Positions 3,201 to 48,153 of a stretch of DNA of 64,000 nt are shown in pieces; positions within the stretch are counted from its first letter, which is position 1; each line of letters begins with the position of its first letter. The stretch comes from the human T2T-CHM13v2.0 reference genome, Homo sapiens. A model generated the notes under the pieces. That model ran no database searches, had not been told where the DNA came from, and saw only the letters and a program-made list of their open reading frames with translations. The stretch lies in contig CP086569.2 in assembly GCA_009914755.4 (NCBI GenBank), forward strand, positions 21,056,001 to 21,120,000, given 5' to 3'. The position numbers and the translations under genes are program-made.

Positions 3201-3400
3201 TGGTCTTGCTCACTTCAAGAATGAAGCTGCAGACCTTAGTGTTGAGTGTTACAGCACTTAAAGTTGTTATGTCCAGAGTTTGTTCCTTCATATGTGGCCA
3301 GCATTTCTTCCTTCTGGCAGGTTCATGGTCTTGCTCACTTCAAGAATGAAGCTGCAGACCTTGGTGGTGAGTGTTACAGCACTTAAAGGTGTTATGTCCA
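236..3400. repeat. Diverged HOR copies of ~2511 bp (20 monomers) in the left domain
   Basis: Distinctive variant monomers recur at +2511 bp: 236 and 2747 (MLQYV[NK]VLCPEFVNSD...), 394 and 2905, 519 and 3030, 656 and 3167. The 'ggcaagttcaaggtcttgctaacttc' monomer sits at ~157, ~2667 and ~7307. Copies differ by several percent. Confidence 0.7.
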
Positions 3401-19100: not shown

Positions 19101-22100
19101 TTCCGGTGAGTGTTACAGCATTTAAAGGTGTTATGTCTAGACTTTGTTCCTTCAGATGTGTCCAGTTTCTTCTTTCTGGAAGGTTCATGGTCTTGCTCAC
19201 TTCAAGAATGAAACAGTAGACCTTTACGGTGAGTGTTACAGCACTTAAAGTTGTTATGTCCAGAGTTTGTTCCTTCAGATGTGTGCAGAGTTTCTTCCTT
19301 CTGGCAGGTTCTTGGTCTTGCTCACTTCAAGAATGAAGCTACAGACCTTTACGGTGAGTGTTACAGCATTTAAAACTGTTATGTCCAGAGTTTCTAACAT
19401 CAGATGTGTCTAGAGTTCCTTCCTTCTGGGAGATTCATGGACTTGCTCATTTCAAGAATGAAGCTGCAGACCTTAGTGGTGAGTTTTACAGCACTTAAAG
19501 GTGTTATGTCCAGAGTTTGTTCCTTCAGATGTGTCCAGAGTTTCTTCCTTCTTGCAGGTCGTGGTCTTGCTCACTTCCTTAATGAAGCTGCAGACCTTTA
19601 CGTTGAGCGTTACAGCACTTAAAGGTGTTATGTCCAGAGTTTGTTCCTTCAGATGTGTCCAGAGTTTCTTTCTTCTGGCAGGTTCATGGTCTTGCTCACT
19701 TCAAGAATGTAGCTCCAGTCCTTTACGGTGAGTGTTACAGCACTTAAAGGTGTTATATCCAGAGTTTGTTCCTTCAGATGTGTCCAGCATTTCTTCCTTC
19801 TGGCAGGTTCATGGTCTTGCTCACCTCCAGAATGAAAATGCAGAACTTTACGGTGAGGTTTACAGCATTTAAAAGTGTTATGTCCAGAGTTTTTTCCTTC
19901 AGATGTGTCCAGAGTTTCTTCCTTCTGACAGGTTTGTCGTCTTGCTCACTTCAAGAATGAAGCTGCACACCTTAGTGGTGAGCGTTACAGCACTTAAGTT
20001 TTTAAGTCCAGAGTTTGTTCCTTCAGATGTGTCCAGGGTTTCTTCCTTCTGGCAGGTTCATGGTCTTGCTGACCTCAAGAATGAAGCTGCAGACCTTTAC
20101 GGTGAGTGTTACAGCATTTAAATGTGTTATGTCCAGAGTTCGTTCATTCAGATGTGTCCAGTATTTCTTCCTTGTGGCAGGTTCATGGTCTTGCTCACTT
20201 CACGAATGAAGCTGCAGACCTTTACGCTGAGTTTTACAGCACTTAAAACTGTTAAGTCCAGAGTTTCTTCCTTCAGATGTGTCCAGAGTTTCTTCCTTCT
20301 GGCAGGTTCATCGTCTTGTTCACTTCAAGAATGAAGCTGCAGACATTTACGGTGACTGTTACAGCATTCAAATGTGTTATGCCCAGAGATTTTTCCTTCA
20401 GATGTGTCCAGAGTTTCTACCTTCTGGCAGGTTGATGGTCTTGCTCACTTGAAGAATGAAGCTGCAGACCTTTACGTTGAATGTTACAGCACTTAAAGGT
20501 GTTATGTCCAGAGTTTTTTCCTTCAGATGTGTCCAGAGTTTCTTTCTTCTGGTAGGTTCATGGTCTTGCTCACTTCAAGAATGAAACTGCAGACCTTACG
20601 TTGAGTGTTACAGCACTTAAAGGTGTTATGTCCAGAGTTTGTTCCTTCAGATGTGTCCACTTTCCTCCTTCTGGCAGGTTCATGGTCTTGCTCACTTCAA
20701 GAATGAATCTGTAGACTGTTACGGTGAGTGTTACAGCACTGAATCATGTTATGTCCAGAGTTTGTTCCTTCAGATGTGTCTAGAGTTTGTTCCATCTGTC
20801 AGGATCTTGTCCTTGCTCACTTCAAGAATGAAGCTGTAGAACTTAGTGGTGTGTTTTACACCACTTAAAGGTGTTATGTCCAGAGTTTCTTCCTTCAGAT
20901 ATGTCCAGAGTTTCTTCCTTCTGACAGGTTCATGGTCTTGCTGACCTCAAGAATGAAGTTGCAGACCTTTACGGTGAGTGTTACAGCACTTAAAGGTGTT
21001 ATGTCCAGTGTTTTTTCCTTCAGATGTGTCCAGAGTTTCTTCATTCTGGCAGTTTCATGGTCTTGCTCACTTCAAGAATGAAGCTGCAGAACGTAGTGGT
21101 GAGTTTTACAGCACTTAAAGGTGTTATGTCCAGAATTTGTTCCTTCAGATGTGTCCAGAGTTTCTTCCTTCTCGCCGGTTCATGCTCTTGCTCACTTCAA
21201 GAATGAAGCTGCAGACCTTAGTGGTGAGTGTTACAGCACTTAAAGATGTTATGTCCAGAGTTTGTTCCTTCAGATGTGTCCAGAGTTTCTTCCTTCTGGC
21301 AGGTTCATGGTCTTGCTCACTTCCAGAATGAAGCTGCAGACCTTTACGGTCAGTGTTAAAGCACTTAAAGGTGTTATGTCCAGAGTTTGTTCCTTCAGAT
21401 GTTTCCAGAGTTTCTTCCTTCTGGCAGGTTCATGGTCTTGCTCACTTCAAGAATGAAGCTGCAGACGATTACGGTGAGTGTTACAGCATTTAAAGGTGTT
21501 ATGTCCATAGTTTGTTCCTTCAGATGTGTGCAGAGTTTCTTCCTTCTGGCAGGTTCATGGTATTGCTCATTTCAAGAATGAACCTGCAGACCTTACTGGT
21601 GAGTGTTACAGCACTTAAAGTTTTTATGTCCAGAGTTTGTTCCTTCAGATGTGTCCAGAGTTTCTTCCTTCTGGCAGGTTCATGGTCTTGCTCACTTCAA
21701 GAATGAAGCTGCAGACCTTAGTGGTGAGCGTTACAGCACTTAAGTTTTTATGTCCAGGGTTTGTTCCTTCAGATAATTCCAGAGTTTCTTCCTTCTGGCA
21801 GGTTCATGGTCTTGCTCACTTCAAGAATGAAGCTGCAGACCTCAGTGGTGAGTTTTACAGCACTTAAAGTTGTTATGTCCAGAGTTTGTTCCTTCAGATG
21901 TGTCCAGAGTTTCTTCCTTCTGGCAGGTTCATGGTCTTGCTCAATTCAAGAATGACGCGGCAGAGCTTTACGGTGAGTGTTACAGCATTTAAAGGTGTTA
22001 TGTCCAGAGTTTGTTCCTTCAGATGTGTCCACTTTCTTCCTTCTGGCAGGTTCATGGTCTTGCTCACTTCAAGAATGAAACTGTAGACCTTTACGGTGAG

Positions 22101-25100
22101 TGTTACAGCAATGAAAGATGCTATGTCCAGAGTTTGTTCCTTCAGATGTGTCCAGAATTTCTTCCTTCTGGCATGTTCATGGTCTTGCTCACTTCAAGAA
22201 TGAAGCAGCAGATCTTTACGGTGAGTGTTACAGCATTTAAAGTTGTTATGTCCAGAGTTTGTTCCTTCAGATGTGTCCAGAGTTTCCTCTTTCTGGCAGG
22301 TTCATGGTCTTGCTCACTTCAAGAATGAAGCTGCAGACCTTAGTGGTGAGCGTTACAGCACTTAAGTTTTTATGTCCAGAGTTTGTTCCTTCAGATAAGT
22401 CCAGAGATTCTTCCTTCTGGCAGGTCCATGGTCTTGCTCACTTCAAGAATGGAACTGCAGACCCTTACGGTGAGTGTTACAGCACTTAAAATTGTTATGT
22501 CTAGAGTTTGTTCCTTCATATATGTCCAGTTTCTTCCTTCTGGAAGGTTCATGGTCTTGCTCACTTCAAGAATGAAACTGTAGACCTTTACGGTGAGTGT
22601 TACAGCACTGAAAGATGTTATTTCCAGAGTTTGTTCCTTCAGATGTGTCCAGAGTTTCTTCCTTCTGGCAGGTTCATGGTCTTGCTCACTTCAAGAAAGA
22701 AGCTGCAGAACTTAGTGGTGAGTTTTACAGCACTTAAAGGTGTTATGTCCAGAGTCTGTTCCTTCAGATGTGTCCAGAGTTTCTTCCTTCTGGCAGGTTC
22801 TTGGTCTTGCTCACTTCAAGAATGAAGCTGCAGACCTTAGTGGTGAGTGTTACAGCACTTAAAGGTGTTATGTCCAGAGTTTGTTCCTTCAGATGTGTCC
22901 AGAGTTTCTTCCTTCTGGCAGGTTCATGGTCTTCTTCACTTCAAGAATGAAGCTGCAGACCTTTACGGTGAGTGTTACATCATTTAAAGGTGTTATGTCC
23001 ATAGTTTGTTCCTTCAGATGTGTGCAGAGTTTCTTCCTTCTGGGAGGTTAAAGTACTTGCTCATTTCAAGAATGAAGCTGCAGAACTTAGTGGTGAGCAG
23101 TACAGCAGTTAATTTTTTATGTCCAGGGTTTGTTCCTTCAGATGAGTCCAGAGTTTCTTCCTTCTGGCAGGTTCATGGTCTTGCTCACTTCAAGAATGAA
23201 GCTGCAGAACTTAGTGGTGAGTTTTACAGCACTTAAAGGTGTTATGTCCAGAGTTTGTTCCTTCAGATGTGTCCAGAGTTTCTTCCTTCTGGCAGGTTCA
23301 TGGTCTTGCTCACTTCAAGAATGAAGCTGCAGAACTTAGTGGTGAGTGTTACAGCACTTAAAGGTGTTATGTCCAGAGATTGTTCCTTCAGATGTGTCCA
23401 GATTTTCTTCCTTCTGGCAGGTTCATGGTCTTGCTCACTTCAAGAATGAAGCTGCAGACCGTAGTGGTGGGTGTCACAACACTTAAAGATGTTATTTACA
23501 GAGTTTGTTCCTTCAGATGTGTCCAGAGTTTCTTCCTTCTGGCAGGTTCGTGGTCTTGCTCACTTCAAGAATGAAGCTGCAGACCTTTACGGTGAGTGTT
23601 ACAGCACATAAAGGTGTTATGTCCAGAGTTTGTTCCTTCAGATGTGTCCAGAGTTTCTTCCTTCTGGCAGGTACATGGTCTTGCTCACTTCAAGAATGAG
23701 GCGGCAGTCGTTTACGGTGAGTGTTACAGCATATAAACGTGTTATGTCCAGAGTTTGTTCCTTCAGATGTGTCCAGTTTCTTCCTTCTGGCAGGTTCATG
23801 GTCTTTCTCACTTCAAGAATGAAACTATAGAACTTTACGGTGAGCGTTACAGCAATGAAAGATGCTATATCCAGAGTTTGTTCCTTCAGATGTGTCCAGA
23901 GTTTCTTCCTTCTGGCAGATTCATGGTCTTGCTCACTTCAAGAATGAAGCTGCAGACCTTTACGGTGAGTGTTACAGCATTTAAATGTTTTATGTCCAGA
24001 GTTTGTTCCATCAGTTGTGTCTAGAGTTCCTTACTTCTGGGAGGTTCATGGACTTGCTCATTTCAAGAATGAAGCTGCATACCTTTACGGTGAGTGTTAT
24101 AGCACTTAAAGGTGTTATGTCCAGAGTTTGTTCCTTCAGATGTGTCCAGAGTTTCTTCCTTCTGGCAGGTTCATGGTCTTCCTCACTTCAAGAATGAAGC
24201 TGCAGAACTTAGTGGTGAGTTTTACACACTTAAAGGTGTTATGTCCAGAGTTTTTTCCTTCAGATGTGTCCAGAGTTTCTTCCTTCTGGCAGGTTCATGG
24301 TCTTGCTCACTTTAAGAATGAAGCTGCAGACCTTAGTGGTGAGTGTTACAACACTTAAAGATGTTATTTACAGAGTTTTTTCCTTCAGATGTGTCCAGAG
24401 TTTCTTCCTTCTGGCAGGTTCATGGTCTTGCTCACTTCAAGAATGAAGATGCAGACCTTTACGGTGAGTGTTACAGCACATAAAGGTGTTATATCCAGAG
24501 TTTGTTCCTTCAGATGTGTCCAGAGTTTCTTCCTTCTGGCAGGTTCATGGTCTTGCTCACTTCAAGAATGAAGCTGCAGTCCTTTACGGTGAGTGTTACA
24601 TCATTTAAAGGTGTTATGTCCAGAGTTTTTTACATCAGATTTGTCTAGATTTCCTTCCTTCTGGGAGTTTCATGGACTTGCTCATTTCAAGAATGAAGCT
24701 GCAGACCTTAGTGGTGAGTTTTACAGCACTTAAAGCTGTTATGTCCAGAGTTTGTTCCTTCAGATGTGTCCAGAGTTTCTTCCTTCTCCAGGTTCATGGT
24801 TTGCTCACTTCAAGAATGAAGCTGCAGACCTTAGTGGTGAGCGTTACAGCAGTTAAGTTTTTATGTCCAGAGTTTGTTCCTTCAGATAAGTCCAGAGTTT
24901 CTTCCTTCTGGCAGGTTCATGGTCTTGCTCACTTCAAGAATGAAGCTGCGGACCTTAGTGGTGAGCGTTACATCACTTAAGTTTTTATGTCCAGAGTTTG
25001 TTCCTTCAGATAAGTCCAGAGTTTCTTCCTTCTGGCAGGTTCATGGTCTTGCTCACTTCAAGAATGAAGCTGCAGACCTTTACGGTGAGTGTTACAGCAT

Positions 25101-26254
25101 TTAAAGGTGTTATGTCCATTGTTTGTTCCTTCAGATGTGTCCACTTTCTTCCTTCTGGCAGGTTCATGGTCTTGCTCAATTCAAGAATGAAACTGTAGAC
25201 CTTTACGGTGAGTGTTACAGCAATGAAAGATGCTATGTCCAGAGTTTGTTCCTTCAGATGTGTCCAGAGTTTCTTCCTTCTGGCAGGTTCATGGTCTAGC
25301 TCACTTCAAGAATGAAACTGCAGACCTTTACGGTGAGTGTTACGGCATTTAAAGGTGTTATGTCCAGAGTTTGTTCCTTCAGATGTGTCCAGAGTTTCCT
25401 CCTTCTGGCAGGTTCATGGTCTTGCTCACTTCAAGAATGAAGCTGCAGACCTTAGTGGTGAGCGTTACAGCACTTAAGTTTTTATGTCCAGAGTTTGTTC
25501 CTTCAGATAAGTCCAGAGATTCTTCCTTCTGGCACGTCCATGGTCTTGCTCACTTCAAGAATGAAACTGCAGACCCTTACGGTGAATGTTACAGCACTAA
25601 AAATTGTTATGTCTAGAGTTTCTTCCTTCATATGTGTCCAGTTTCTTCCTTCTGGAAGGTTCATGGTCTTGCTCACTTCAAGAATGAAACTGTAGACCTT
25701 TACGGTGAGTGTTACAGCACTGAAAGATGTTATTTCCAGAGTTTGTTCCTTCAGATGTGTCCAGTGTTTCTTCCTTCTGGCAGGTTCATGGTCTTGCTCA
25801 CTTCAAGAAAGAAGCTGCAGAACTTAGTGGTGAGTTTTACAGCACTTAAAGGTGTTATATCCAGAGTTTGTTCCTTCAGATGTGTCCAGAGTTTCTTCCT
25901 TCTGGCAGGTTCATGGTCTTGCTCACTTCAAGAATGAAGCTGCAGACCTTAGTGGTGAGTGTTACAACACTTAAAGATGTTATTTACAGAGTTTGTTCCT
26001 TCAGATGTGTCCAGAGTTTCTTCCTTCTGGCAGGTTCATGGTCTTGCTCACTTCAAGAATGAAGATGCAGACCTTTACGGTGAGTGTTACAGCACATAAA
26101 GGTGTTATGTCCAGAGTTTGTTCCTTCAGATGTGTCCAGAGTTTCTTCCTTCTGGCAGGTTCATGGTCTTGCTCACTTCAAGAATGAAGCTGCAGTCCTT
26201 TACGGTGAGTGTTACATCATTTAAAGGTGTTATGTCCAGAGTTTTTTACATCAG

Positions 26255-29200
26255 ATGTGTCTAGATTTCCTTCCTTCTGGGAGGTTCATGGACTTGCTCA
26301 TTTCAAGAATGAAGCTGCAGACCTTAGTGGTGAGATTTACAGCACTTAAAGCTGTTATGTCCAGAGTTTGTTCCTTCAGATGTGTCCAGAGTTTCTTCCT
26401 TCTCCAGGTTCATGGTCTTGCTCACTTCACGAATGAAGCTGCAGACCTTAGTGGTGAGCGTTACAGCAGTTAAGTTTTTATGTCCAGAGTTTGTTCCTTC
26501 AGATAAGTCCAGAGTTTCTTCCTTCTGGCGGGTTCATGGTCTTGCTCACTTCAAGAATGAAGCTGCGGACCTTAGTGGTGAGCGTTACAGCACTTAAGTT
26601 TTTATGTCCAGAGTTTGTCCCTTCAGATAAGTCCAGAGATTCTTCCTTCTGGCAGGTTCATGGTCTTGCTCACTTCAAGAATGAAGCTGCAGACCTTTAC
26701 GGTGAGTGTTACAGCACTTAAAGGTGTTATGTCCAGAGTTTGTTCCTTCAGATGTGTCCAGAGTTTCTTCCTTCTGACAAGTTCATGGTCTTGCTCACTT
26801 CAAGAATGAAGCTGCAGACCTTTACGGTGAGAGTTACAACATTAATGGTGTTATGTACAGAGTTTGTTCCTTCAGATGTGTGCAGAGTTTCTTCCTTCTG
26901 GCAGGTTCATGGTATTGCTCACTTCAAGAATGAAGCTGCAGACCTTAGTGGTGAGTGTTACAGCACTTAAAGTTGTTATGTCCAGAGTTTGTTCCTTCAG
27001 ATGTGTCCAGAGTTTCTTCCCTCTGGCTGGTTCTTGGTCTTGCTCACTTCAAGAATGAAGCTGCAGACCTTTACGGTGAGTGTTACAGCATTTAATGGAG
27101 ATATGTCCAGAGTTTCTTACATCAGATGTGTCTAGAGCTCCTTCCTTCTGGGAGGTTCATGGACTTGCTCATTTCAAGAATGAAGCTGAAGACCGTAGTG
27201 GTGAGTTTTACAACATTTAAAGGTGTTAGGTCCAGAGTTTGTTCCTTCAGATGTGTCCAGAGTTTCTTCCTTCTGGCAGGTTCATGGTCTTGCTCACTTC
27301 AAGAATGAAGCTGCAGACCTTAGTGGTGAGCGTTACAGCACTTATGTTTTTATGTCCAGGATTTGTTCCTTCAGATAAGTCCAGAGTTTCTTCCTTCTTG
27401 CAGGTTCATAGTCTTGCTCACTTCAAGAATGAAGCTGCAGAACTTAGTGGTGAGTTTTACAGCACTTAAAGGTGTTATGTCCAGAGTTTGTTCCTTCAGA
27501 TGTGTCCAGAGTTTCTTCCTTCTGGCAGGTTCATGGTCTTGCTCACTTCAAGAATGACGGGGCAGACCTTTACGGTGAGTGTTACAGCATTTAAATGTGT
27601 TATGTCCATTGTTTGTTCCTTCAGATGTGTCCACTTTCTTCCTTCTGGCAGGTTCATGGTCTTGCTCACTTCAAGAATGAAACTGTAGACCTTTACGGTG
27701 AGTGTTACAGCAATGAAAGATGCTATGTCCAGAGTTTTTTCCTTCAGATGTGTCCAGAGTTTCTTCCTTCTGGCAGGTTCATGGTCTAGCTCAATTCAAG
27801 AATGAAACTGCAGACCTTTACGGTGAGTGTTACAGCATTTAAAGGTGTTATGTCCAGAGTTTGTTCCTTCAGATGTGTCCAGAGTTTCCTCCTTCTGGCA
27901 GGTTCATGGTCTTGCTCACTTCAAGAATGAAGCTGCAGTCCTTTACGGTGAGTGTTACATCATTTAAAGGTGTTATGTCCAGAGTTTTTTACATCAGATG
28001 TGTCTAATTTTCCTTCCTTCTGGGAGGTTCATGGACTTGCTCATTTCAAGAATGAAGCTGCAGACCTTAGTGGTGAGTTTTACAGCACTTAAAGCTGTTA
28101 TGTCCAGAGTTTGTTCCTTCAGATGTGTCCAGAGTTTCTTCCTTCTCCAGGTTCATGGTCTTGCTCACTTCAAGAATGAAGCTGCAGACCTTAGTGGTGA
28201 GCGTTACAGCACTTAAGTTTTTATGTCCAGAGTGTGTTCCTTCAGATAAGTCCAGAGTTTCTTCCTTCTGGCAGGCTCATGGTCTTGCTCACTTCAAGAA
28301 TGAAGCAGCGGACCTTAGTGGTGAGCGTTACAGCACTTAAGTTTTTATGTCCAGAGTTTGTTCCTTCAGATAAGTCCAGAGTTTCTTCCTTGTGGCAGGT
28401 TCATGGTCTTGCTCACTTCAAGAATGAAGCTGCAGACCTTAGTGGTGAGCGTTACAGCACTTAAGTTTTTATGTCCAGAGTTTGTTCCTTCAGATAAGTC
28501 TAGAGATTCTTCCTTCTGGCAGGTCCATGGTCTTCCTCACTTCAAGAATGAAACTGCAGACCCTTACGGTGAATGTTACAGCACTTAAAATTGTTATGTC
28601 TAGAGTTTCTTCCTTCATATGTGTCCAGTTTCTTCCTTCTGGAAGGTTCATGGTCTTGCTCACTTCAAGAATGAAACTGTAGACCTTTACGGTGAGTGTT
28701 ACAGCACTGAAAGATGTTATTTCCAGAGTTTGTTCCTTGAGATGTGTCCAGAGTTTCTTCCTTCTGGCAGGCTCATGGTCTTGCTCACTTCAAGAAAGAA
28801 GCTGCAGAACTTAGTGGTGAGTTTTGCAGCACTTAAAGGTGTTATGTCCAGAGTTTGTTCCTTCAGATGTGTCCAGAGTTTCTTCCTTCTGGCAGGTTCA
28901 TGGTCTTGCTCACTTCAAGAATGAAGCTGCAGACCTTAGTGGTGAGTGTTACAACACTTAAAGGTGTTATTTACAGAGTTTGTTCCTTCAGATGTGTCCA
29001 GAGTTTCTTCCTTCTGGCAGGTTCATGGTCTTGCTCACTTCAAGAATGAAGATGGAGACCTTTACGGTGAGTGTTACAGCACATAAAGGTGTTATGTTCA
29101 GAGATTGTTCCTTCAGATGTGTCCAGAGTTTCTTCCTTCTGGCAGGTTCATGGTCTTGCTCACTTCAAGAATGAAGCTGCAGTCCTTTACGGTGAGTGTT

Positions 29201-34100: not shown

Positions 34101-34220
34101 TACAGAGTTTCTTCCCTCTGGCTGGTTCTTGGTCTTGCTCACTTCAAGAATGAAGCTGCAGACCTTTACGGTGAGTGTTACAGCATTTAATGGAGTTATG
34201 TCCAGAGTTTCTTACATCAG
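31110..34220. repeat. 3111 bp HOR (25 monomers), copy 1
   Basis: All 17 ORF translations in this block recur at +3111 in 34221-37331. Fifteen are identical and two carry a single substitution each. Direct nucleotide comparison of several stretches is identical. Confidence 0.92.
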
Positions 34221-37200: not shown

Positions 37201-37331
37201 CTTCAGATGTGTACAGAGTTTCTTCCCTCTGGCTGGTTCTTGGTCTTGCTCACTTCAAGAATGAAGCTGCAGACCTTTACGGTGAGTGTTACAGCATTTA
37301 ATGGAGTTATGTCCAGAGTTTCTTACATCAG
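34221..37331. repeat. 3111 bp HOR (25 monomers), copy 2, at least 99.9% identical to copy 1
   Basis: Same as copy 1. Spot checks found only 2 mismatches: 35571 a versus 32460 g, and 37171 g versus 34060 a. Confidence 0.92.
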
Positions 37332-40300
37332 ATGTGTCTAGAGCTCCTTCCTTCTGGGAGGTTCATGGACTTGCTCATTTCAAGAATGAAGCTGAAGACC
37401 TTAGTGGTGAGTTTTACAGCACTTAAAGGTGTTAGGTCCAGAGTTTGTTCCTTCAGATGTGTCCAGAGTTTCTTCCTTCTGGCAGGTTCATGGTGTTGCT
37501 CACTTCAAGAATGAAGCTGCAGACCTTAGTGGTGAGCGTTACAGCACTGAAGTTTTTATGTCCAGGGTTTGTTCCTTCAGATAAGTCCAGAGTTTCTTCC
37601 TTCTTGCAGGTTCATGGTCTTGCTCACTTCAAGAATGAAGCTGCAGAACTTAGTGGTGAGTTTTACAGCACATAAAGGTGTTATGTCCAGAGTTTGTTCC
37701 TTCAGATGTGTCCAGATTTTCTTCCTTCTGGCAGGTTCATGGTCTTGCTCACTTCAAGAATGACGCGGCAGACCTTTACGGTGAGTGTTACAGCATTTAA
37801 AAGTGTTATGTCCAGAGTTTGTTCCTTCAGATGTGTCCACTTTCTTCCTTCTGGCAGGTTCATGGTCTTGCTCACTTCAAGAATGAAACTGTAGACCTTT
37901 ACGGTGAGTGTTACAGCAATGAATGATGCTATGTCCAGAGTTCGTTCCTTCAGATGTGTCCAGAGTTTCTTCCTTCTGGCAGGTTCATGGTCTTGCTCAC
38001 TTCAAGAATGAAGCTGCAGTCCTTTACGGTGAGTGTTACAGCATTTAAAGGTGTTATGTCCAGAGTTTGTTCCTTCAGATGTGTCCAGAGTTTCCTCCTT
38101 CTGGCAGGTTCATGGTCTTGCTCACTTCAAGAATGAAGCTGCAGACCTTAGTGGTGAGTGTTACAGCACTTAAATTTGTTATGTCCAGAGTTTGTTCCTT
38201 CAGATGTGTCCAGAGTTTCTTCCCTCTGGCTGGTTCTTGGTCTTGCTCACTTCAAGAATGAAGCTGCATACCTTTACGGTGAGTGTTACAGCATTTAATG
38301 GAGTTATGTCCAGAGTTTGTTACATCAGATGTGTCTAGAGCTCCTTCCTTCTGGGAGGTTCATGGACTTGCTCATTTCAAGAATGAAGCTGAAGTCCTTA
38401 GTGGTGAGTTTTACAACACTTAAAGGTGTTAGGTCCAGAGTTTGTTCCTTCAGATGTGTCCAGAGTTTCTTCCTTCTGGCAGGTTCATGGTCTTGCTCAC
38501 TTCAAGAATGAAGCTGCAGACCTTAGTGCTGAGCGTTACAGCACTTAAGTTTTTATGTCCAGAGTTTGTTCCTTCAGATAAGTCCTGAGATTCTTCCTTC
38601 TGGCAGGTCCATGGTCTTGCTCACTTCAAGAATGAAACTGCAGACCCTTACGGTGAGTGTTACAGCACTTAAAATTGTTATGTCTAGAGTTTGTTCTTTC
38701 ATATGTGTCCAGTTTCTTCCTTCTGGAAGGTTCATGGTCTTGCTCACTTCAAGAATGAAACTGTAGACCTTTACGGTGAGTGTTACAGCACTGAAAGATG
38801 TTATTTCCAGAGTTTGTTCCTTCAGATGTGTCCAGAGTTTCTTCCTTCTGTCAGGTTCATGGTCTTGCTCACTTCAAGAAAGAAGCTGCAGAACTTAGTG
38901 GTGAGTTTTACAGCACTTAAAGGTGTTATATCCAGAGTTTGTTCCTTCAGATGTGTCCAGAGTTTCTTCCTTCTGGCAGGTTCATGGTCTTGCTCACTTC
39001 AAGAATGAAGCTGCAGACCTTAGTGGTGAGTGTTACAACACTTAAAGATGTTATTTACAGAGTTTGTTCCTTCAGATGTGTCCAGAGTTTCTTCCTTCTG
39101 GCAGGTTCATGGTCTTGCTCACTTCAAGAATGAAGATGCAGACCTTTACGGTGAGTGTTACAGCACATAAAGGTGTTATGTCCAGAGTTTGTTCCTTCAG
39201 ATGTGTCCAGAGTTTCTTCCTTCTGGCAGGTTCATGGTCTTGCTCACTTCAAGAATGAAGCTGCAGTCCTTTACGGTGAGTGTTACATCATTTAAAGGTG
39301 TTATGTCCAGAGTTTTTTACATCAGATGTGTCTAATTTTCCTTCCTTCTGGGAGGTTCATGGACTTGCTCATTTCAAGAATGAAGTTGCAGACCTTAGTG
39401 GTGAGTTTTACAGCACTTAAAGCTGTTATGTCCAGAGTTTGTTCCTTCAGATGTGTCCAGAGTTTCTTCCTTCTCCAGGTTCATGGTCTTGCTCACTTCA
39501 AGAATGAAGCTGCAGACCTTGGTGGTGAGCGTTACAGCACTTAAGTTTTTATGTCCAGAGTTTGTTCCTTCAGATAAGTCCAGAGTTTCTTCCTTCTGGC
39601 AGGTTCATGGTCTTGCTCACTTCAAGAATGAAGCTGCGGACCTTAGTGGTGAGCGTTACAGCACTTAAGTTTTTATGTCCAGAGTTTGTTCCTTCAGATA
39701 AGTCCAGAGTTTCTTCCTTGTGGCAGGTTCATGGTCTTGCTCACTTCAAGAATGAAGCTGCAGACCTTAGTGGTGAGCGTTACAGCACTTAAGTTTTTAT
39801 GTCCAGAGTTTGTTCCTTCAGATAAGTCCAGAGATTCTTCCTTCTGGCAGGTCCATGGTCTTGCTCACTTCAAGAATGAAACTGCAGACCCTTACGGTGA
39901 ATGTTACAGCACTTAAAATTGTTATGTCTAGAGTTTCTTCCTTCATATGTGTCCAGTTTCTTCCTTCTGGAAGGTTCATGGTCTTGCTCACTTCAAGAAT
40001 GAACCTGTAGACCTTTACGGTGAGTGTTACAGCACTGAAAGATGTTATTTCCAGAGTTTGTTCCTTCAGATGTGTCCAGAGTTTCTTCCTTCTGGCAGGC
40101 TCATGGTCTTGCTCACTTCAAGAAAGAAGCTGCAGAACTTAATGGTGAGTTTTGCAGCACTTAAAGGTGTTATGTCCAGAGTTTGTTCCTTCAGATGTGT
40201 CCAGAGTTTCTTCCTTCTGGCAGGTTCATGGTCTTGCTCACTTCAAGAATGAAGCTGCAGACCTTAGTGGTGTGTGTTACAACACTTAAAGATGTTATTT

Positions 40301-41564
40301 ACAGAGTTTGTTCCTTCAGATGTGTCCAGAGTTTCTTCCTTCTGGCAGGTTCATGGTCTTGCTCACTTCAAGAATGAAGATGCAGACCTTTACGGTGAGT
40401 GTTACAGCACATAAAGGTGTTATGTCCAGAGATTGTTCCTTCAGATGTGTCCAGAGTTTCTTCCTTCTGGCAGGTTCATGGTCTTGCTCACTTCAAGAAT
40501 GAAGCTGCAGTCCTTTACGGTGAGTGTTACATCATTTAAAGGTGTTATATCCAGAGTTTTTTACATCAGACGTGTCTAGATTTCCTTCCTTCTGGGAGGT
40601 TCACGGACTTGCTAATTTCAAGAATGAAGCTGCAGACCTTAGTGGTGAGTTTTACAGCACTTAAAGCTGTTATGTCCAGAGTTTGTTCCTTCAGATGTGT
40701 CCAGAGTTTCTTCCTTCTCCAGGTTCATGGTCTTGCTCACTTCAAGAATGAAGCTGCAGACCTTAGTGGTGAGCGTTACAGCAGTTAAGTTTTTATGTCC
40801 AGAGTTTGTTCCTTCAGATAAGTCCAGAGTTTCGTCCTTCTGGCAGGTTCATGGTCTTGCTCACTTGAAGAATGAAGCTGCGGACCCTAGTTGTGAGCGT
40901 TACAGCACTTAAGTTTTTATGTCCAGAGTTTGTTCCTTCAGATAAGTCCAGAGTTTCTTCCTTCTGGCAGGTTCATGGTCTTGCTCACTTCAAGAATGAA
41001 GCTGCAGACCTTAGTGGTGAGCGTTACAGCAGTTAAGTTTTTATGTCCAGAGTTTGTTCCTTCAGATAAGTCCAGACTTTCTTCCTTCTGGCAGGTTCAT
41101 GGTCTTGCTCACTTCAAGAATGAAGCTGCAGACCTTTACGGTGAGTGTTACAGCACTTAAAAGTGTTATGTCCAGAGTTTGTTCCTTCAGAAGTGTCCAG
41201 AGTTTCTTCCTTCTGACAAGTTCATGGTCTTGCTCACTTCAAGAATGAAGCTGCAGACCTTTACGGTGAGTGTTACAGCATTAATGGTGTTATGTACAGA
41301 GTTTGTTCCTTCAGATGTGTGCAGAGTTTCTTCCTTCTGGCAGGTTCATGGTATTGCTCACTTCAAGAATGAAGCTGCAGACCTTAGTGGTGAGTGTTAC
41401 AGCACTTAAAGTTGTTATGTCCAGGGTTTGTTCCTTCAGATGTGTACAGAGTTTCTTCCCTCTGGCTGGTTCTTGGTCTTGCTCACTTCAAGAATGAAGC
41501 TGCAGACCTTTACGGTGAGTGTTACAGCATTTAATGGAGTTATGTCCAGAGTTTCTTACATCAG
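37332..41564. repeat. 4233 bp composite HOR: a ~985 bp block related to 30113-31109, followed by a ~3248 bp variant of the 3111 bp unit carrying one extra monomer
   Basis: 37332-38316 parallels 30113-31109 in monomer order: MCLELL(KT), PGFVPSD, ISPEFLPSC, MTRQTF, CPLSS, and so on. 38317-41564 parallels 31110-34220 monomer for monomer. The next MCLELL-type monomer is at 41565. Confidence 0.8.
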
Positions 41565-42933
41565 ATGTGTCTAGAGCTCCTTCCTTCTGGGAGGTTCATG
41601 GACTTGCTCATTTCAAGAATGAAGCTGAAGACCTTAGTGGTGAGTTTTACAGCACTTAAAGGTGTTAGGTCCAGAGTTTGTTCCTTCAGATGTGTCCAGA
41701 GTTTCTTCCTTCTGGCAGGTTCATGGTGTTGCTCACTTCAAGAATGAAGCTGCAGACCTTAGTGGTGAGCGTTACAGCACTGAAGTTTTTATGTCCAGGG
41801 TTTGTTCCTTCAGATAAGTCCAGAGTTTCTTCCTTCTTGCAGGTTCATGGTCTTGCTCACTTCAAGAATGAAGCTGCAGAACTTAGTGGTGAGTTTTACA
41901 GCACATAAAGGTGTTATGTCCAGAGTTTGTTCCTTCAGATGTGTCCAGATTTTCTTCCTTCTGGCAGGTTCATGGTCTTGCTCACTTCAAGAATGACGCG
42001 GCAGACCTTTAGGGTGAGTGTTACAGCATTTAAAGGTGTTATGTCCAGAGTTTGTTCCTTCAGATGTGTCCACTTTCTTCCTTCTGGCAGGTTCATGGTC
42101 TTGCTCACTTCAAGAATGAAACTGTAGACCTTTACGGTGAGTGTTACAGTAACGAAAGATGCTATGTCCAGAGTTTGTTCCTTCAGATGTGTCCAGAGTT
42201 TCTTCCTTCTGGCAGGTTCATGGTCTTGCTCACTTCAAGAATGAAGCTGCAGACCTTTACGGTGAGTGTTACAGCATTTAAAGTTGATATGTCCAGAGTT
42301 TGTTCCTTCAGATGTGTCCAGAGTTTCCTCCTTCTGGCAGGTTCACGGTCTTGCTCACTTCAAGAATGAAGCTGCAGACCTTAGTGGTGAGCGTTACAGC
42401 ACTTAAGTTTTTATGTCCAGAGTTTGTTCCTTCAGATAAGTCCAGAGATTCTTCCTTCTGGCAGGTCCATGGTCTTGCTCACTTCAAGAATGAAACTGCA
42501 GACCCTTACGGTGAGTGTTACAGCACTTAAAATTGTTATGTCTAGAGTTTGTTCCTTCATATGTGTCCAGTTTCTTCCTTCTGGAAGGTTCATGGTCTTG
42601 CTCACTTCAAGAATGAAACTGTAGACCTTTACGGTGAGTGTTACAGCACTGAAAGATGTTATTTCCAGAGTTTGTTCCTTCAGATGTGTCCAGAGTTTCT
42701 TCCTTCTGGCAGGTTCATGGTCTTGCTCACTTCAAGAATGAAGCTGCAGACCTTTACGGTGAGTGTTACAGCACATAAAGGTGTTATGTCCACAGTTTGT
42801 TCCTTCAGATGTGTCCAGAGTTTCTTCCTTCTGGCAGGTTCATGGTCTTGCTCACTTCAAGAATGAAGCTGCAGTCCTTTACGGTGAGTGTTACATCATT
42901 TAAAGGTGTTATGTCCAGAGTTTTTTACATCAG

Positions 42934-45173
42934 ATGTGTCTAATATTCCTTCCTTCTGGGAGGTTCGTGGACTTGCTCATTTCAAGAATGAAGCTGCAGA
43001 CCTTAGTGGTGAGTTTTACAGCACTTAAAGCTGTTATGTCCAGAGTTTGTTCCTTCAGATGTGTCCAGAGTTTCTTCCTTCTCCAGGTTCATGGTCTTGC
43101 TCACTTCAAGAATGAAGCTGCAGACCTTAGTGGTGAGCGTTACAGCACTTAAGTTTTTATGTCCAGAGTTTGTTCCTTCAGATAAGTCCAGAGTTTCTTC
43201 CTTGTGGCAGGTTCATGGTCTTGCTCACTTCAAGAATGAAGCTGCAGACCTTAGTGGTGAGCGTTACAGCACTTAAGTTTTTATGTCCACAGTTTGTTCC
43301 TTCAGATATGTCCAGAAATTCTTCCTTCTGGCAGGTCCATGGTCTTGCTCACTTCAAGAATGAAACTGCAGACCCTTACGGTGAATGTTACAGCACTTAA
43401 AATTGTTATGTCTAGAGTTTCTTCCTTCATATGTGTCCAGTTTCTTCCTTCTGGAAGGTTCATGGTCTTGCTCACTTCAAGAATGAAACTGTAGACCTTT
43501 ACGGTGAGTGTTACAGCACTGAAAGATGTTATTTCCAGGGTTTGTTCCTTCAGATGTGTCCAGAGTTTCTTCCTTCTGGCAGGCTCATGGTCTTGCTCAC
43601 TTCAAGAAAGAAGCTGCAGAACTTAGTGGTGAGTTTTGCAGCACTTAAAGGTGTTATGTCCAGAGTTTGTTCCTTCCGATGTGTCCAGAGTTTCTTTCTT
43701 CTGGCAGGTTCATGGTCTTGCTCACTTCAAGAATGAAGCTGCAGACCTTAGTGGTGAGTGTTACAACACTTAAAGATGTTATTTACAGAGTTTGTTCCTT
43801 CACATGTGTACAGAGTTTCTTCCTTCTGGCAGGTTCATGGTCTTGCTCACTTCAAGAATGAAGCTGCAGACCTTTACGGTGAGTGTTACAGCACATAAAG
43901 GTGTTATGTCCAGAGTTTGTTCCTTCAGATGTGTCCAGAGTTTCTTCCTTCTGGCAGGTTCATGGTCTTGCTCACTTCAAGAATGAAGCTGCAGTCCTTT
44001 ACGGTGAGTGTTACATCATTTAAAGGTGTTATGTCCAGAGTTTTTTACATCAGATGTGTCTAATATTCCTTCCTTCTGGGAGGTTCATGGACTTGCTCAT
44101 TTCAAGAATGAAGCTGCAGACCTTAGTGGTGAGTTTTACAGCACTTAAAGCTGTTATGTCCAGAGTTTGTTCCTTCAGATGTGTCCAGAGTTTCTTCCTT
44201 CTCCAGGTTCATGGTCTTGCTCACTTCAAGAATGAAGCTGCAGACCTTAGTGGTGAGCGTTACAGCACTTAAGTTTTTATGTCCAGAGTTTGTTCCTTCA
44301 GATAAGTCCAGAGTTTCTTCCTTGTGGCAGGTTCATGGTCTTGCTCACTTCAAGAATGAAGCTGCAGACCTTAGTGGTGAGCGTTACAGCACTTAAGTTT
44401 TTATGTCCACAGTTTCTTCCTTCAGATAAGTCCAGAGATTCTTCCTTCTGGCAGGTCCATGGTCTTGCTCACTTCAAGAATGAAACTGCAGACCCTTACG
44501 GTGAATGTTACAGCACTTAAAATTGTTATGTCTAGAGTTTCTTCCTTCATATGTGTCCAGTTTCTTCCTTCTGGAAGGTTCATGGTCTTGCTCACTTCAA
44601 GAATGAAACTGTAGACCTTTACGGTGAGTGTTACAGCACTGAAAGATGTTATTTCCAGGGTTTGTTCCTTCAGATGTGTCCAGAGTTTCTTCCTTCTGGC
44701 AGGCTCATGGTCTTGCTCACTTCAAGAAAGAAGCTGCAGAACTTAGTGGTGAGTTTTGCAGCACTTAAAGGTGTTATGTCCAGAGTTTGTTCCTTCAGAT
44801 GTGTCCAGAGTTTCTTCCTTCTGGCAGGTTCATGGTCTTGCTCATTTCAAGAATGAAGCTGCAGACCTTAGTGGTGAGTGTTACAACACTTAAAGACGTT
44901 ATTTACAGAGTTTGTTCCTTCAGATGTGTCCAGAGTTTCTTCCTTCTGGCAGGTTCATGGTCTTGCTCACTTCAAGAATGAAGATGCAGACCTTTACGGT
45001 GAGTGTTACAGCACATAAAGGTGTTATGTCCAGAGATTGTTCCTTCAGATGTGTCCAGAGTTTCTTCCTTCTGGCAGGTTCATAGTCTTGTTCACTTCAA
45101 GAATGAAGCTGCAGTCCTTTACGGTGAGTGTTACATCATTTAAAGGTGTTATATCCAGAGTTTTTTACATCAG
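42934..45173. repeat. Two tandem copies of a 1120 bp (9-monomer) HOR; a third, rearranged unit starts at 45174
   Basis: MCLIF-type monomers sit at 42934 and 44054 and an MCLD type at 45174, each 1120 bp apart. The internal series 43061/44181, 43170/44290, 43431/44551, 43667/44787 and 43792/44912 match with a few substitutions. Confidence 0.85.
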
Positions 45174-45409
45174 ATGTGTCTAGATTTCCTTCCTTCTGGG
45201 AGGTTCACGGACTTGCTCATTTCAAGAATGAAGCTGCAGACCTTAGTGGTGAGTTTTACAGCACTTAAAGCTGTTATGTCCAGAGTTTGTTCCTTCAGAT
45301 GTGTCCAGAGTTTCTTCCTTCTCCAGGTTCATGGTCTTGCTCACTTCAAGAATGAAGCTGCAGACCTTAGTGGTGAGCGTTACAGCAGTTAAGTTTTTAT
45401 GTCCAGAGT

Positions 45410-46403
45410 TTGTTCCTTCAGATAAGTCCAGAGTTTCTTCCTTCTGGCAGGTTCATGGTCTTGCTCACTTCAAGAATGAAGCTGCGGACCTTAGTGGTGA
45501 GCGTTACAGCACTTAAGTTTTTATGTCCAGAGTTTGTTCCTTCAGATAAGTCCAGACTTTCTTCCTTCTGGCAGGTTCATGGTCTTGCTCACTTCAAGAA
45601 TGAAGCTGCAGACCTTTACGGTGAGTGTTACAGCACTTAAAGGTGTTATGTCCAGAGTTTGTTCCTTCAGAAGTGTCCAGAGTTTCTTCCTTCTGACAAG
45701 TTCATGGTCTTGCTCACTTCAAGAATGAAGCTGCAGACCTTTACGGTGAGTGTTACAGCATTAATGGTGTTATGTACAGAGTTTGTTCCTTCAGATGTGT
45801 GCAGAGTTTCTTCCTTCTGGCAGGTTCATAGTATTGCTCACTTCAAGAATGAAGCTGCAGACCTTAGTGGTGAGCGTTACAGCAGTTAAGTTTTTATGTC
45901 CAGAGTTTGTTCCTTCAGATAAGTCCAGAGTTTCTTCCTTCTGGCAGGTTCATGGTCTTGCTCACTTCAAGAATGAAGCTGCGGACCTTAGTGGTGAGCG
46001 TTACAGCACTTAAGTTTTTATGTCCAGAGTTTGTTCCTTCAGATAAGTCCAGACTTTCTTCCTTCTGGCAGGTTCATGGTCTTGCTCACTTCAAGAATGA
46101 AGCTGCAGACCTTTACGGTGAGTGTTACAGCACTTAAAGGTGTTATGTCCAGAGTTTGTTCCTTCAGAAGTGTCCAGAGTTTCTTCCTTCTGACAAGTTC
46201 ATGGTCTTGCTCACTTCAAGAATGAAGCTGCAGACCTTTACGGTGAGTGTTACAGCATTAATGGTGTTATGTACAGTGTTTGTTCCTTCAGATGTGTGCA
46301 GAGTTTCTTCCTTCTGGCAGGTTCATGGTATTGCTCACTTCAAGAATGAAGCTGCAGACCTTAGTGGTGAGTGTTACAGCACTTAAAGTTGTTATGTCCA
46401 GGG
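45410..46403. repeat. 497 bp (4-monomer) tandem duplication inside the HOR
   Basis: ORFs at 45410, 45534 and 45659 are repeated at 45907, 46031 and 46156, which is +497. The translations differ by about one residue across the set. Confidence 0.85.
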
Positions 46404-46892
46404 TTTGTTCCTTCAGATGTGTACAGACTTTCTTCCCTCTGGCTGGTTCTTGGTCTTGCTCACTTCAAGAATGAAGCTGCAGACCTTTACGGTGAGTGTT
46501 ACAGCATTTAATGGAGTTATGTCCAGAGTTTCTTACATCAGATGTGTCTAGAGCTCCTTCCTTCTGGGAGGTTCATGGACTTGCTCATTTCAAGAATGAA
46601 GCTGAAGACCTTAGTGGTGAGTTTTACAGCACTTAAAGGTGTTAGGTCCAGAGTTTGTTCCTTCAGATGTGTCCAGAGTTTCTTCCTTCTGGCAGGTTCA
46701 TGGTCTTGCTCACTTCAAGAATGAAGCTGCAGAACTTAGTGGTGAGTTTTACAGCACATAAAGGTGTTATGTCCAGAGTTTGTTCCTTCAGATGTGTCCA
46801 GAGTTTCTTCCTTCTGGCAGGTTCATGGTATTGCTCACTTCAAGAATGAAGCTGCAGACCTTAGTGGTGAGTGTTACAGCACTTAAAGTTGT

Positions 46893-47392
46893 TATGTCCA
46901 GAGTTTGTTCCTTCAGATGTTTCCAGAGTTTCTTCCCTCTGGCAGGTTCTTGGTCTTGCTCACTTCAAGAATGAAGCTGCAGACCTTTACGGTGAGTGTT
47001 ACAGCATTTAATGGAGTTATGTCCAGAGTTTCTTACATCAGATGTGTCTAGAGTTCCTTCCTTCTGGGAGGTTCATGGACTTGCTCATTTCAAGAATGAA
47101 GCTGAAGACCTTAGTGGTGAGTTTTACAGCACTTAAAGGTGTTAGGTCCAGAGTTTGTTCCTTCAGATGTGTCCAGAGTTTCTTCCCTCTGGCAGGTTCT
47201 TGGTCTTGCTCACTTCAAGAATGAAGCTGCAGACCTTTACGGTGAGTGTTACAGCATTTAATGGAGTTATGTCCAGAGTTTCTTACATCAGATATGTCTA
47301 GAGTCCCTTCCTTCTGGGAGGTTCATGGACTTGCTCATTTCAAGAATGAAGCTGAAGACCTTAGTGGTGAGTTTTACAGCACTTAAAGGTGT
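46893..47392. repeat. 250 bp dimeric unit, 2 copies: an 'FFPLAG'-type monomer plus an MCLE-type monomer
   Basis: MCLE-type ORFs sit at 47042 and ~47292, each preceded by a 'ttcttccctctggcaggttcttgg' monomer. The same dimer recurs at 49774-50273, with ORFs at 49911 and 50161. Confidence 0.75.
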
Positions 47393-48153
47393 TAGGTCCA
47401 GAGTTTGTTCCTTCAGATGTGTCCAGAGTTTCTTCCTTCTGGCAGGTCCATGGTCTTGCTCACTTCAAGAATGAAGCTGTAGACCTTAGTGGTGACCGTT
47501 ACAGCACTTAAGTTTTTATGTCCAGAGTTTTTTCCTTCAGATATGTTTAGAGTTTCTTCCTTCTGGCAGGTTCATGGTCCTGCTCACTTCAAAAATGAAG
47601 CTGCAGACCTTTACGGTGAGTGTTACAGCATTTAAATGTGTTATGTCCATAGTTTGTTCCTTCAGATGTGTGCAGAGTTTCTTCCTTCTGGCAGGACCAT
47701 GGTATTGCTCACCTCAACAATGAAGCTGCAGAACTTAGTGGTGAGTGTTACAGCACTTCAAGTTGTTATGTCCAGAGTTTGTTCCTTCAGATATGTCCAG
47801 AGTTTCTTCTTTCTGGCAGGTTCATGGTCTTGCTCACTTCAAAAATGAAGCTGCAGTCCTTTACGGTGAGTGTTACATCATTTAAAGGTGTTATGTCCAA
47901 AGTTTTTTTACCTCAGATGTGTCTAGAGTTCCTTCTTTCTGGGAGGTTCATGTAGTTGCTCATTTCAAGAATGAAGCTGCAGACATTAGTGGTGAGTTTT
48001 ACAGCACTTAAAGGTGTTATGTCCAGAGTTTGTTCCTTCAGATGTGTCCAGAGTTTCTTCCTTCTGGCAAGTTCATGGTCTTGCTCACTTCAAGAATGAA
48101 GCTGCAGATATTTACGGTGAGTGTTACAGCATTAATGGTGTTATGTACAGAGT

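What the first reader, a model, noticed from the sequence alone, without database searches (positions are those of the whole stretch)
21500..47400. Mosaic 'super-HOR' architecture built from reusable sub-blocks (periods 871/872, 997, 1120, 2987, 3111, 4109, 4233 bp)
A small set of diagnostic monomers punctuates this domain. The MCLELL type is 'gtctagagctccttcc...gaagctgaag'. The MCLIF type is 'gtctaattttcc'. The MCLD type is 'gtctagatttcc'. There is also the 124 bp 'cagataagtccag' type. MCLELL monomers sit at 27126, 30113, 31110, 34221, 37332, 41565 and 46542. MCLIF monomers sit at 27998, 32107, 35218, 39326, 42934 and 44054. MCLD monomers sit at 26255, 29242, ~33229, ~36340, ~40572 and 45174. 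The same ordered sub-blocks, roughly 7-9 monomers each, are recombined into units of different length. This looks like repeated unequal exchange in register at the sub-block level, not simple amplification of one HOR. Identity rises from left, where 22-26 kb copies are noticeably diverged, to right.
Basis: seen in the sequence. Interest (0 to 1): 0.5.

Follow-up and report, generated by a model that had tools for sequence, protein, structure and literature searches.

The report
Nested repeat units in 125-bp satellite
The whole window is one 125-bp satellite DNA array, almost certainly the known human Y-chromosome satellite DYZ19, and the reported mosaic of repeat blocks is real but is the ordinary footprint of repeated unequal crossing-over inside a satellite.

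Summary
All 64 kb form one head-to-tail, single-orientation array of 513 monomers of about 125 bp.

Monomer typing gives a clear grammar at 25.4-47.4 kb. A 9-mer (CDEFGHIJK, 1120 bp) occurs in two versions, alpha and beta. It sits inside a 25/26-mer (B-alpha-[K]-beta-K-LMNOP, 3111/3236 bp). That unit alternates with an 8-mer (BQRAHSOP, 997 bp) to give 33/34-mer periods of 4108/4233 bp. Deletion and duplication variants also occur.

Ordered runs far exceed chance: 61 diagonals of at least 5 monomers against 0.025 in shuffles.

One 9-mer (43294-44413) is a clean beta-5'/alpha-3' hybrid lying between an alpha and a beta copy. This is the textbook product of unequal crossover.

Identity peaks in the centre (99.94% at 31-37 kb) and decays on both sides. 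It does not simply rise from left to right.

The monomer is homologous to the ERV-9/LTR12 LTR. Together with the 125-bp period, this matches published descriptions of DYZ19 (Yq11).

There are no genes, RNA families or inverted repeats.

The parts
1..64000 (+). Uninterrupted head-to-tail array of 513 monomers of about 125 bp, all in one orientation. It runs off both ends of the window.
   Evidence: TRF gives period 125, 513.2 copies and 88% matches. There are 513 anchors spaced 125 (348), 124 (109) and 123 (38) bp apart. No inverted repeats, no Rfam hit, CpG o/e 0.17.
21637..25370 (+). Diverged left fringe of the mosaic domain: B.RA.BCDESH.ESFG.ZabcFGHIJK.A. It holds partial copies of the same blocks, 2-5 differences per monomer from their nearest relatives.
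25371..27238 (+). 15-monomer unit: B, a single 9-mer (CDEFGHIJK), then LMNOP. This is an older copy.
   Evidence: The 9-mer shows mixed alpha/beta states and differs from all other copies by 16-24 positions per 1120 bp.
27239..30225 (+). 24-monomer unit (2987 bp): B Q . A . H I J K K, then beta0 9-mer, then LMNOP. Its closest relative is the unit at 42300-46654.
   Evidence: (best-match lags +128/+132)
30226..31222 (+). 8-monomer block BQRAHSOP (997 bp), first copy.
   Evidence: lag 58 to the copy at 37445
31223..34333 (+). 25-monomer unit (3111 bp): B, alpha 9-mer, beta 9-mer, K, LMNOP. First copy of the youngest duplication.
   Evidence: In phase 31098-34208 versus 34209-37319 there are 2 mismatches in 3111 bp.
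34334..37444 (+). 25-monomer unit, second copy, in tandem with the first.
   Evidence: lag 3111 has 2787 shared 150-mers
37445..38441 (+). 8-monomer block BQRAHSOP, second copy.
38442..41677 (+). 26-monomer variant unit (3236 bp): B, alpha, K, beta, K, LMNOP. It has an extra K monomer between alpha and beta.
   Evidence: alpha and beta are 6-8 differences per 1120 bp from the central copies; lag 34, 99.1%
41678..42299 (+). Truncated block BQRAH (5 monomers).
42300..46654 (+). 35-monomer unit: B; alpha 9-mer lacking E and F (CD-GHIJK); hybrid 9-mer; beta0 9-mer; LMT; KLMNOP.
43294..44413 (+). Recombinant 9-mer. Its 5' part is beta0-type: monomers D and E are identical to the downstream copy. 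Its 3' part is alpha-type: monomers H-K differ at only 1 position in total from the upstream copy. The switch lies in monomers F-G.
   Evidence: At 18 fixed alpha/beta sites the genotype is bbbabbbb|aaaaaaaaaa.
46655..58400 (+). Right-hand mosaic domain built from other blocks: NOP(OP)B-UVWX and (G.)Zabcdef-Y. Units are 23, 33, 20 and 15 monomers long. Identity between copies is 98.2-99.6%.
   Evidence: lags 2869, 4119, 250
2000..10000 (+). Separate, older higher-order repeat (blocks jk.mno.pqi.rs.t; lags of 37 and 40 monomers). It is unrelated to the central block set.
   Evidence: 2.5-3.2 differences per monomer internally, 10-12 to all other regions

Best explanation
The window is an internal piece of a long non-coding satellite array. 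Its 125-bp monomer derives from the tandem-repeat region of an ERV-9/LTR12 LTR. It is most probably the human Y-chromosome satellite DYZ19 (Yq11.22) or a close ortholog.

The super-HOR is a nested, layered higher-order repeat. A 9-monomer block duplicated into alpha and beta versions. These sit inside a 25/26-monomer unit, which alternates with an 8-monomer block to give a 33/34-monomer period.

Length variants arose by homology-driven unequal exchange between misaligned copies. If the array lies on the male-specific Y, the partners would be sister chromatids or the same chromatid. The exchanges always kept monomer register and used near-identical monomers that occur in more than one context (B/J/K, G/H/L, O-P) as recombination substrates.

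The newest events lie in the middle (31-37 kb) and pushed older copies outward.

Shown: the grammar, the register, the nested identity levels, the centre-peaked identity profile and one recombinant block with both parents adjacent. Inferred: the molecular pathway (sister-chromatid exchange versus replication-based template switching), neutrality, and the chromosomal location.
For: Array and monomer: TRF and anchor spacing.

Monomer typing and grammar. The succession graph is deterministic except at B, K, H and P.

Shuffle control: 61 observed diagonals against a mean of 0.025.

Nested identity levels: 99.94% (lag 3111), 99.2% (lag 7220), 99.1% (lag 4232), 97.7% (lag 2987). Median divergence between monomer types is about 11%.

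Alpha and beta 9-mers differ at 18 fixed sites. The copy at 43294 is a single-switch hybrid whose 5' monomers equal the downstream beta0 and whose 3' monomers equal the upstream alpha.

Layering: the 24-30 kb and 42-46 kb units are each other's closest relatives around a younger core. Zabc blocks at 23.7 kb and 48.7 kb flank those.

ERV-9 LTR homology: 7 of 14 published ERV-9 LTR probes (PMC5416847) match the consensus at 14-18 of 20 positions, all on one strand, stacked at two monomer positions.

Literature. DYZ19 is a head-to-tail array of 125-bp units that are a fragment of LTR12B, 63.5-428 kb long. It shows rounds of expansion homogenising its central and distal parts, and tandem duplications are visible in dot plots.
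Against: No reference human sequence or Repbase/Dfam consensus could be searched, so identity with DYZ19 rests on period, LTR homology and array size, not on a direct alignment. The window has no flanks, so chromosome and species are unproven.

Only one clean recombinant block was found. Other junctions (H to B at 42300, D to G at 42672, P to E at 46655) show no convincing homology at the breakpoint and could be non-homologous deletions.

Branch points falling at similar monomers is partly built in by the clustering. Copy numbers of near-identical units depend on assembly accuracy.
Confidence: 0.85

Rival explanations
1. The same nested structure arose not by crossover between sister chromatids but by replication-based mechanisms within one chromatid: fork slippage, template switching or break-induced replication, plus gene conversion.
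For: Perfect tandem duplicates (3111 bp with 2 mismatches; 1120-bp, 497-bp and 250-bp local repeats) and small in-register gains such as K to KK are equally expected from slippage or template switching. A beta/alpha hybrid between its parents is also produced by a template switch between misaligned repeats.
Against: Nothing in a single haplotype separates the two pathways. Unequal exchange predicts reciprocal deletion products in the population, which cannot be examined here.
Confidence: 0.3
2. The variable unit lengths are assembly artefacts, that is, collapsed or expanded near-identical repeats in a hard-to-assemble satellite.
For: The youngest copies are 99.94% identical over 3.1 kb. The GRCh38 version of DYZ19 is reported to be incomplete and rearranged relative to T2T-Y.
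Against: Variants are supported by consistent, nested substitution patterns: 18 fixed alpha/beta sites, a single-switch hybrid and lineage-specific beta versus beta0 states. Older variants differ by 1-2%, which is enough for unambiguous assembly. There are no truncated monomers or phase breaks at junctions.
Confidence: 0.05
3. The region is one regular HOR amplified once, and the apparent mosaic is only random decay by point mutations and scattered indels.
For: A dominant lag of 3111 bp exists.
Against: Only two exact copies of the 25-mer exist. Units of 15, 24, 8, 25, 25, 8, 26, 5 and 35 monomers follow each other. Length differences are whole blocks, not scattered indels. Multiple strong lags coexist (1120, 4108, 4233, 7219, 7343).
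Confidence: 0.02
4. The block structure is maintained by selection for a function, for example a transcribed LTR-derived RNA array or spaced protein-binding sites.
For: The monomer descends from an ERV-9 LTR region that is transcribed in other contexts.
Against: No ORF exceeds 159 aa. No Rfam family matches and there is no CENP-B box. CpG is strongly depleted. Monomer divergence from the consensus is uniform across the window. DYZ19 size varies 6.7-fold among men, including a deletion of about 200 kb.
Confidence: 0.03

Closest known systems
DYZ19, the 125-bp LTR12B-derived satellite of human Yq11.22
   Same: The unit is 125 bp, head-to-tail and in one orientation. The array is over 64 kb with no interspersed elements. 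The monomer is homologous to the ERV-9/LTR12 LTR. Identity is higher in a central zone, with recent tandem duplications.
   Different: Nothing observed contradicts membership. However, direct alignment to a reference DYZ19 and the chromosomal flanks could not be checked. The papers I could search describe the array by identity heat maps and dot plots, not by a monomer-type grammar.
Alpha-satellite HOR arrays with structural variants, and 'cascading' HORs (Gluncic/Paar, PMC11050224)
   Same: Diverged monomers form ordered units whose copies are nearly identical. The same monomer type recurs within a unit. Sub-fragment periods coexist with the main period, and a limited set of variant units recurs.
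   Different: The monomer is 125 bp rather than 171 bp and is unrelated in sequence. There is no CENP-B box. Only 2-3 copies of each unit occur in the window rather than hundreds. Monomer types differ by about 11% rather than 20-40%.
Layered expansion model of satellite arrays (Altemose et al., bioRxiv 10.1101/2021.07.12.452052)
   Same: The youngest, most homogeneous copies lie in the core, with progressively older related layers on both sides.
   Different: Here the array is non-centromeric, so no kinetochore can be invoked. The symmetry is seen over about 40 kb, not megabases.
Classical unequal crossover model of tandem-repeat evolution (Smith 1976; from my own knowledge)
   Same: In-register misalignment between similar repeats generates duplications and deletions, and hybrid repeats at the exchange point. 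The hybrid 9-mer at 43294 lying between its parents is the predicted product.
   Different: If the array is on the male-specific Y, the exchange partner must be the sister chromatid or the same chromatid, not a homologue.

Membership tests
DYZ19 (human Y 125-bp satellite) | Head-to-tail tandem array with a 125-bp unit | tested here: met
   TRF period 125, 513 copies. Anchor spacing is 125/124/123 bp. Single orientation.
DYZ19 (human Y 125-bp satellite) | Monomer derived from the internal tandem repeat of an LTR12B (ERV-9) LTR | tested here: met
   Seven of 14 published ERV-9 LTR probes match the consensus at 14-18 of 20 positions on one strand. Three probes stack at positions 55-60 and three at 82-88; shuffle maxima were 14-16. 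Homology is shown at the ERV-9/LTR12 family level only. Subfamily B could not be checked, because no Repbase/Dfam consensus was available.
DYZ19 (human Y 125-bp satellite) | Array of tens to hundreds of kb (63.5-428 kb) without other interspersed repeats | tested here: met
   All 64,000 bases are satellite and the array runs off both ends. This is a lower bound only.
DYZ19 (human Y 125-bp satellite) | Direct sequence identity to reference DYZ19 (for example CP086569.2 or chrY_KI270740v1_random) | not testable with these tools
   No human genome collection is available. Scans of genome and viral contigs found nothing. The metagenome scan found only a dispersed 2-copy fragment.
DYZ19 (human Y 125-bp satellite) | Location in Yq11.22 flanked by X-degenerate sequence | not testable with these tools
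   The window contains no flanking sequence.
DYZ19 (human Y 125-bp satellite) | Internal zones of recent expansion and homogenisation | tested here: met
   Centre-peaked identity profile and layered relatives, compared with the description.
Higher-order repeat (HOR) satellite, nested or 'cascading' type | Monomers within a unit are clearly diverged while unit copies are nearly identical | tested here: met
   Median between-type distance is 14 of 125 positions (about 11%). Unit copies are 97.7-99.94% identical.
Higher-order repeat (HOR) satellite, nested or 'cascading' type | The same monomer type recurs within one unit, giving sub-fragment periods | tested here: met
   The 25/26-mer contains two 9-mers. 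Lags 1120, 3111, 4108 and 4233 coexist.
Higher-order repeat (HOR) satellite, nested or 'cascading' type | Many tandem iterations of a canonical unit | tested here: inconclusive
   The window holds only 2 exact 25-mers and 2-3 copies of the 33/34-mer. The rest of the array was not seen.
Centromeric alpha satellite | Monomer of about 171 bp, with a CENP-B box in a subset of monomers | tested here: not met
   The period is 125 bp. There is no match to TTCGNNNNANNCGGG.

The most novel reading that the evidence does not exclude
This may be the first monomer-resolved grammar of the DYZ19-type satellite. It would show that a non-centromeric array, which would be non-recombining if it lies on the male-specific Y, evolves by the same nested-HOR and centre-out layered expansion seen in centromeres, without a kinetochore. 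It also preserves an identifiable crossover product. The alpha/beta/hybrid blocks could serve as markers to count and date sister-chromatid exchange events on the Y phylogeny.
Probability: 0.35. Interest if true: 0.35.

Novelty: already known. Interest (0 to 1): 0.17.

Why it matters
The main value is as a correct annotation. The window is non-coding satellite, so the MCL... peptide-like names and the many periods need no further gene-level follow-up.

The locus does offer a compact, fully readable example of how satellite arrays grow: nested units, register-preserving exchange, a preserved recombinant and youngest-in-the-centre layering. Because it lies outside a centromere, it supports the view that layered expansion can be a neutral property of tandem arrays and need not depend on a kinetochore.

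If the block variants are polymorphic among Y haplogroups, they could be used to time intrachromosomal exchange events.

Tried and rejected
1. Pure-Python edit-distance clustering timed out. It was replaced by a MAFFT alignment with Hamming distances.

2. A global lag profile of monomer distances shows only shallow dips, because several periods coexist. Diagonal-run and nearest-neighbour analyses were needed.

3. Literature searches found nothing useful: a printed DYZ19 or LTR12B consensus, a GRM/HOR analysis of the 125-bp Y repeat, and DYZ19 in the ape sex-chromosome paper.

4. Scans of the bacterial/archaeal genome and viral collections for the monomer core found nothing. The metagenome scan gave only one dispersed 2-copy fragment.

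5. Chimera fitting of odd monomers at junctions gave a few suggestive hybrids, for example monomer 374 at 46655. With about 30 types and free breakpoints it is over-fitted, so I do not rely on it.

6. Coding, structured-RNA, inverted-repeat and CENP-B-box readings were checked and rejected.

7. I considered dating the duplications from a Y mutation rate. I rejected this as unreliable because of satellite mutation and conversion rates and the unverified species.
Full report
**What is in the window**

Tandem Repeats Finder reports one array from base 5 to 64000, with period 125, 513 copies and 88% matches. A fuzzy anchor (CACTTCAAGAATGAA) occurs 513 times, spaced 125 (348 times), 124 (109) or 123 (38) bp apart. 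Only one spacing falls outside 120-130 bp. Base composition is flat. All copies lie on one strand. No ORF exceeds 159 aa, no Rfam family matches, and CpG is strongly depleted (o/e 0.17). The finding's region is therefore an internal part of a much larger satellite, not a bounded element.

**Check of the observation**

- MCLIF and MCLD are two alleles of one type (I).

I cut the array into 512 monomers, aligned them and clustered them by average linkage at 5 differences. From 25.4 to 47.4 kb the type string reads:

- B CDEFGHIJK LMNOP
- B Q.A.HIJK K CDEFGHIJK LMNOP
- BQRAHSOP
- B CDEFGHIJK CDEFGHIJK K LMNOP (twice)
- BQRAHSOP
- B CDEFGHIJK K CDEFGHIJK K LMNOP
- BQRAH
- B CD-GHIJK CDEFGHIJK CDEFGHIJK LMT KLMNOP
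- E NOP OP B ...

Each type has a fixed length.

Runs of at least 5 consecutive matching monomers number 61, with the longest at 29. In 200 shuffles of monomer order the mean was 0.025 and the longest run was 5.

**Corrections to the observation**

- Shared exact 150-mers show the true duplication lags: 3111 (dominant), 4108/4109, 4232/4233, 1120, 7219/7220, 7343/7344 and 497.
- The lag 2987 is an older duplication at 97.7% identity.
- The values 871/872 and 997 are distances between different marker monomers, with no self-similarity at those lags.
- Identity is not a left-to-right ramp. Nearest-neighbour distance per monomer is about 5.7 at 20 kb, 0 at 32-36 kb, about 1 at 42-50 kb and 3-4 beyond 54 kb.
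- The mosaic continues to about 58.4 kb with another block set, NOP(OP)B-UVWX and Zabcdef-Y, in units of 23, 33, 20 and 15 monomers.
- A separate older HOR occupies 2-10 kb.

**Anatomy and history**

The ten complete 9-mers fall into two versions. Alpha copies lie at 31347, 34458 and 38566. Beta copies lie at 32467, 35578 and 39810. The two versions differ at 18 fixed sites, about 25 differences per 1120 bp in total. An older beta form (beta0) occurs at 28482 and 44414.

Identity is nested:

| Comparison | Identity |
|---|---|
| Two 25-mers at 31-37 kb | 99.94% (2 mismatches in 3111 bp) |
| Lag 58 monomers | 99.2% |
| Lag 34 monomers | 99.1% |
| Lag 24 monomers (25.4 vs 28.4 kb) | 97.7% |
| Between different monomer types | about 89% (median 11% divergence) |

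The units at 27.2-30.2 kb and 42.3-46.7 kb are each other's closest relatives (best-match lags +128/+132). They bracket the younger core. Zabc blocks at 23.7 and 48.7 kb bracket those in turn. Regions at 14-18 kb and 58-62 kb are weakly related, at 5-7 differences per monomer. This is a centre-out layered pattern.

**Mechanism**

The monomer succession graph is deterministic, for example C to D in 11 of 11 cases, I to J in 12 of 12 and O to P in 10 of 10. The exceptions are at B, K, H and P. Types B, J and K differ from each other by only 4-6 bases, and G, H and L by 5-6. All junctions keep the monomer phase.

The decisive item is the 9-mer at 43294-44413.

- At the 18 diagnostic sites it reads bbbabbbb then aaaaaaaaaa.
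- Its D and E monomers are identical to the next copy downstream (beta0).
- Its H-K monomers differ at only 1 position in total from the copy upstream (alpha).
- The switch lies in monomers F-G.

An arrangement of alpha, then a beta-5'/alpha-3' hybrid, then beta is exactly what a crossover gives when the beta of one chromatid pairs with the alpha of a partner misaligned by nine monomers. So homologous, in-register unequal exchange at the sub-block level is shown at least once. It is the most economical explanation for the K/KK, H-H and 9-mer copy-number variants.

A single haplotype cannot show whether the pathway was sister-chromatid crossover or replication-based template switching. Three junctions show no obvious homology and may be simple deletions: H to B at 42300, D to G at 42672 and P to E at 46655.

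**Identity of the satellite**

The literature describes DYZ19 as a head-to-tail array of 125-bp units that are a fragment of LTR12B.

- It is 265 kb in T2T-Y and 63.5-428 kb across 43 men.
- It shows at least two rounds of expansion homogenising its central and distal parts.
- Tandem duplications are visible in dot plots.
- The LTR12B consensus itself contains three tandem units of about 125 bp.

I could not align to a human reference. As a substitute I compared the window consensus with 14 published ERV-9 LTR probe sequences (PMC5416847). Seven match at 14-18 of 20 positions, all on the same strand. Three different probes stack at monomer positions 55-60 and three at 82-88. That stacking is what a tandem repeat inside the LTR predicts; shuffle maxima were 14-16.

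A metagenome contig (L001) carries a dispersed 2.1-copy fragment, 94% identical to the consensus, next to L1-like sequence. Period, origin, size and internal organisation all fit DYZ19. Chromosome, species and exact identity remain unverified.

**Comparison with known systems and verdict**

The architecture corresponds to HOR structural variants and 'cascading' HORs described for alpha satellite. It also fits the layered-expansion model, whose authors already note similar patterns in non-centromeric satellites. It is not alpha satellite: the period is 125 bp and there is no CENP-B box.

In the searchable literature I found no monomer-level grammar of DYZ19, so the grammar and the recombinant block are a descriptive refinement. 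The array, its LTR origin and its zonal expansions are published.

Noticed in passing
window 769-12170: A 129-bp monomer variant carries a 4-bp AAGA duplication inside the CAAGAATGAA core. It occurs 8 times, only in the leftmost 12 kb.
   Followed up: partly
window 2000-10000: A separate, older higher-order repeat with lags of 37 and 40 monomers (4633 and 5008 bp) and 2.5-3.2 differences per monomer. It shares no block types with the central domain.
   Followed up: partly
window 10000-14000 and 18000-20000: These stretches have no higher-order partner anywhere in the window (at least 9-10 differences per monomer to everything). They are purely monomeric, diverged satellite.
   Followed up: no
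window 51149-51648; 46905-47404; 49774-50273: Local dimeric repeats: NHNH (exact at lag 2 monomers) and OPOP (250-bp period).
   Followed up: partly
every monomer, e.g. window 27230-27280: Each 125-bp monomer contains an internal 25-bp direct duplication (GTCCAGAGTTTgTTCCTTCaGatgt / GTCCAGAGTTTcTTCCTTCtGgcag). TRF picks it up as many 25-bp, 2-copy rows.
   Followed up: no
L001 154-412 (metagenome contig OOKJ01005318.1): A dispersed 2.1-copy fragment of the same 125-bp unit, 94% identical to the window consensus, followed by L1-like sequence and a CA-rich tract. It is probably host primate DNA in a metagenome and a non-array relative of the satellite.
   Followed up: partly
window 25495-26614: The single 9-mer of the 15-monomer unit has mixed alpha/beta character states (bbbabaaaaaaabbaaaa). 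It may be a pre-duplication ancestor or a recombinant; this is unresolved.
   Followed up: partly
window, whole: All 40 mechanical ORFs of at least 90 aa lie on the + strand. This is a consequence of the repeat's strand-asymmetric composition (AT skew -0.23), not evidence of coding.
   Followed up: no
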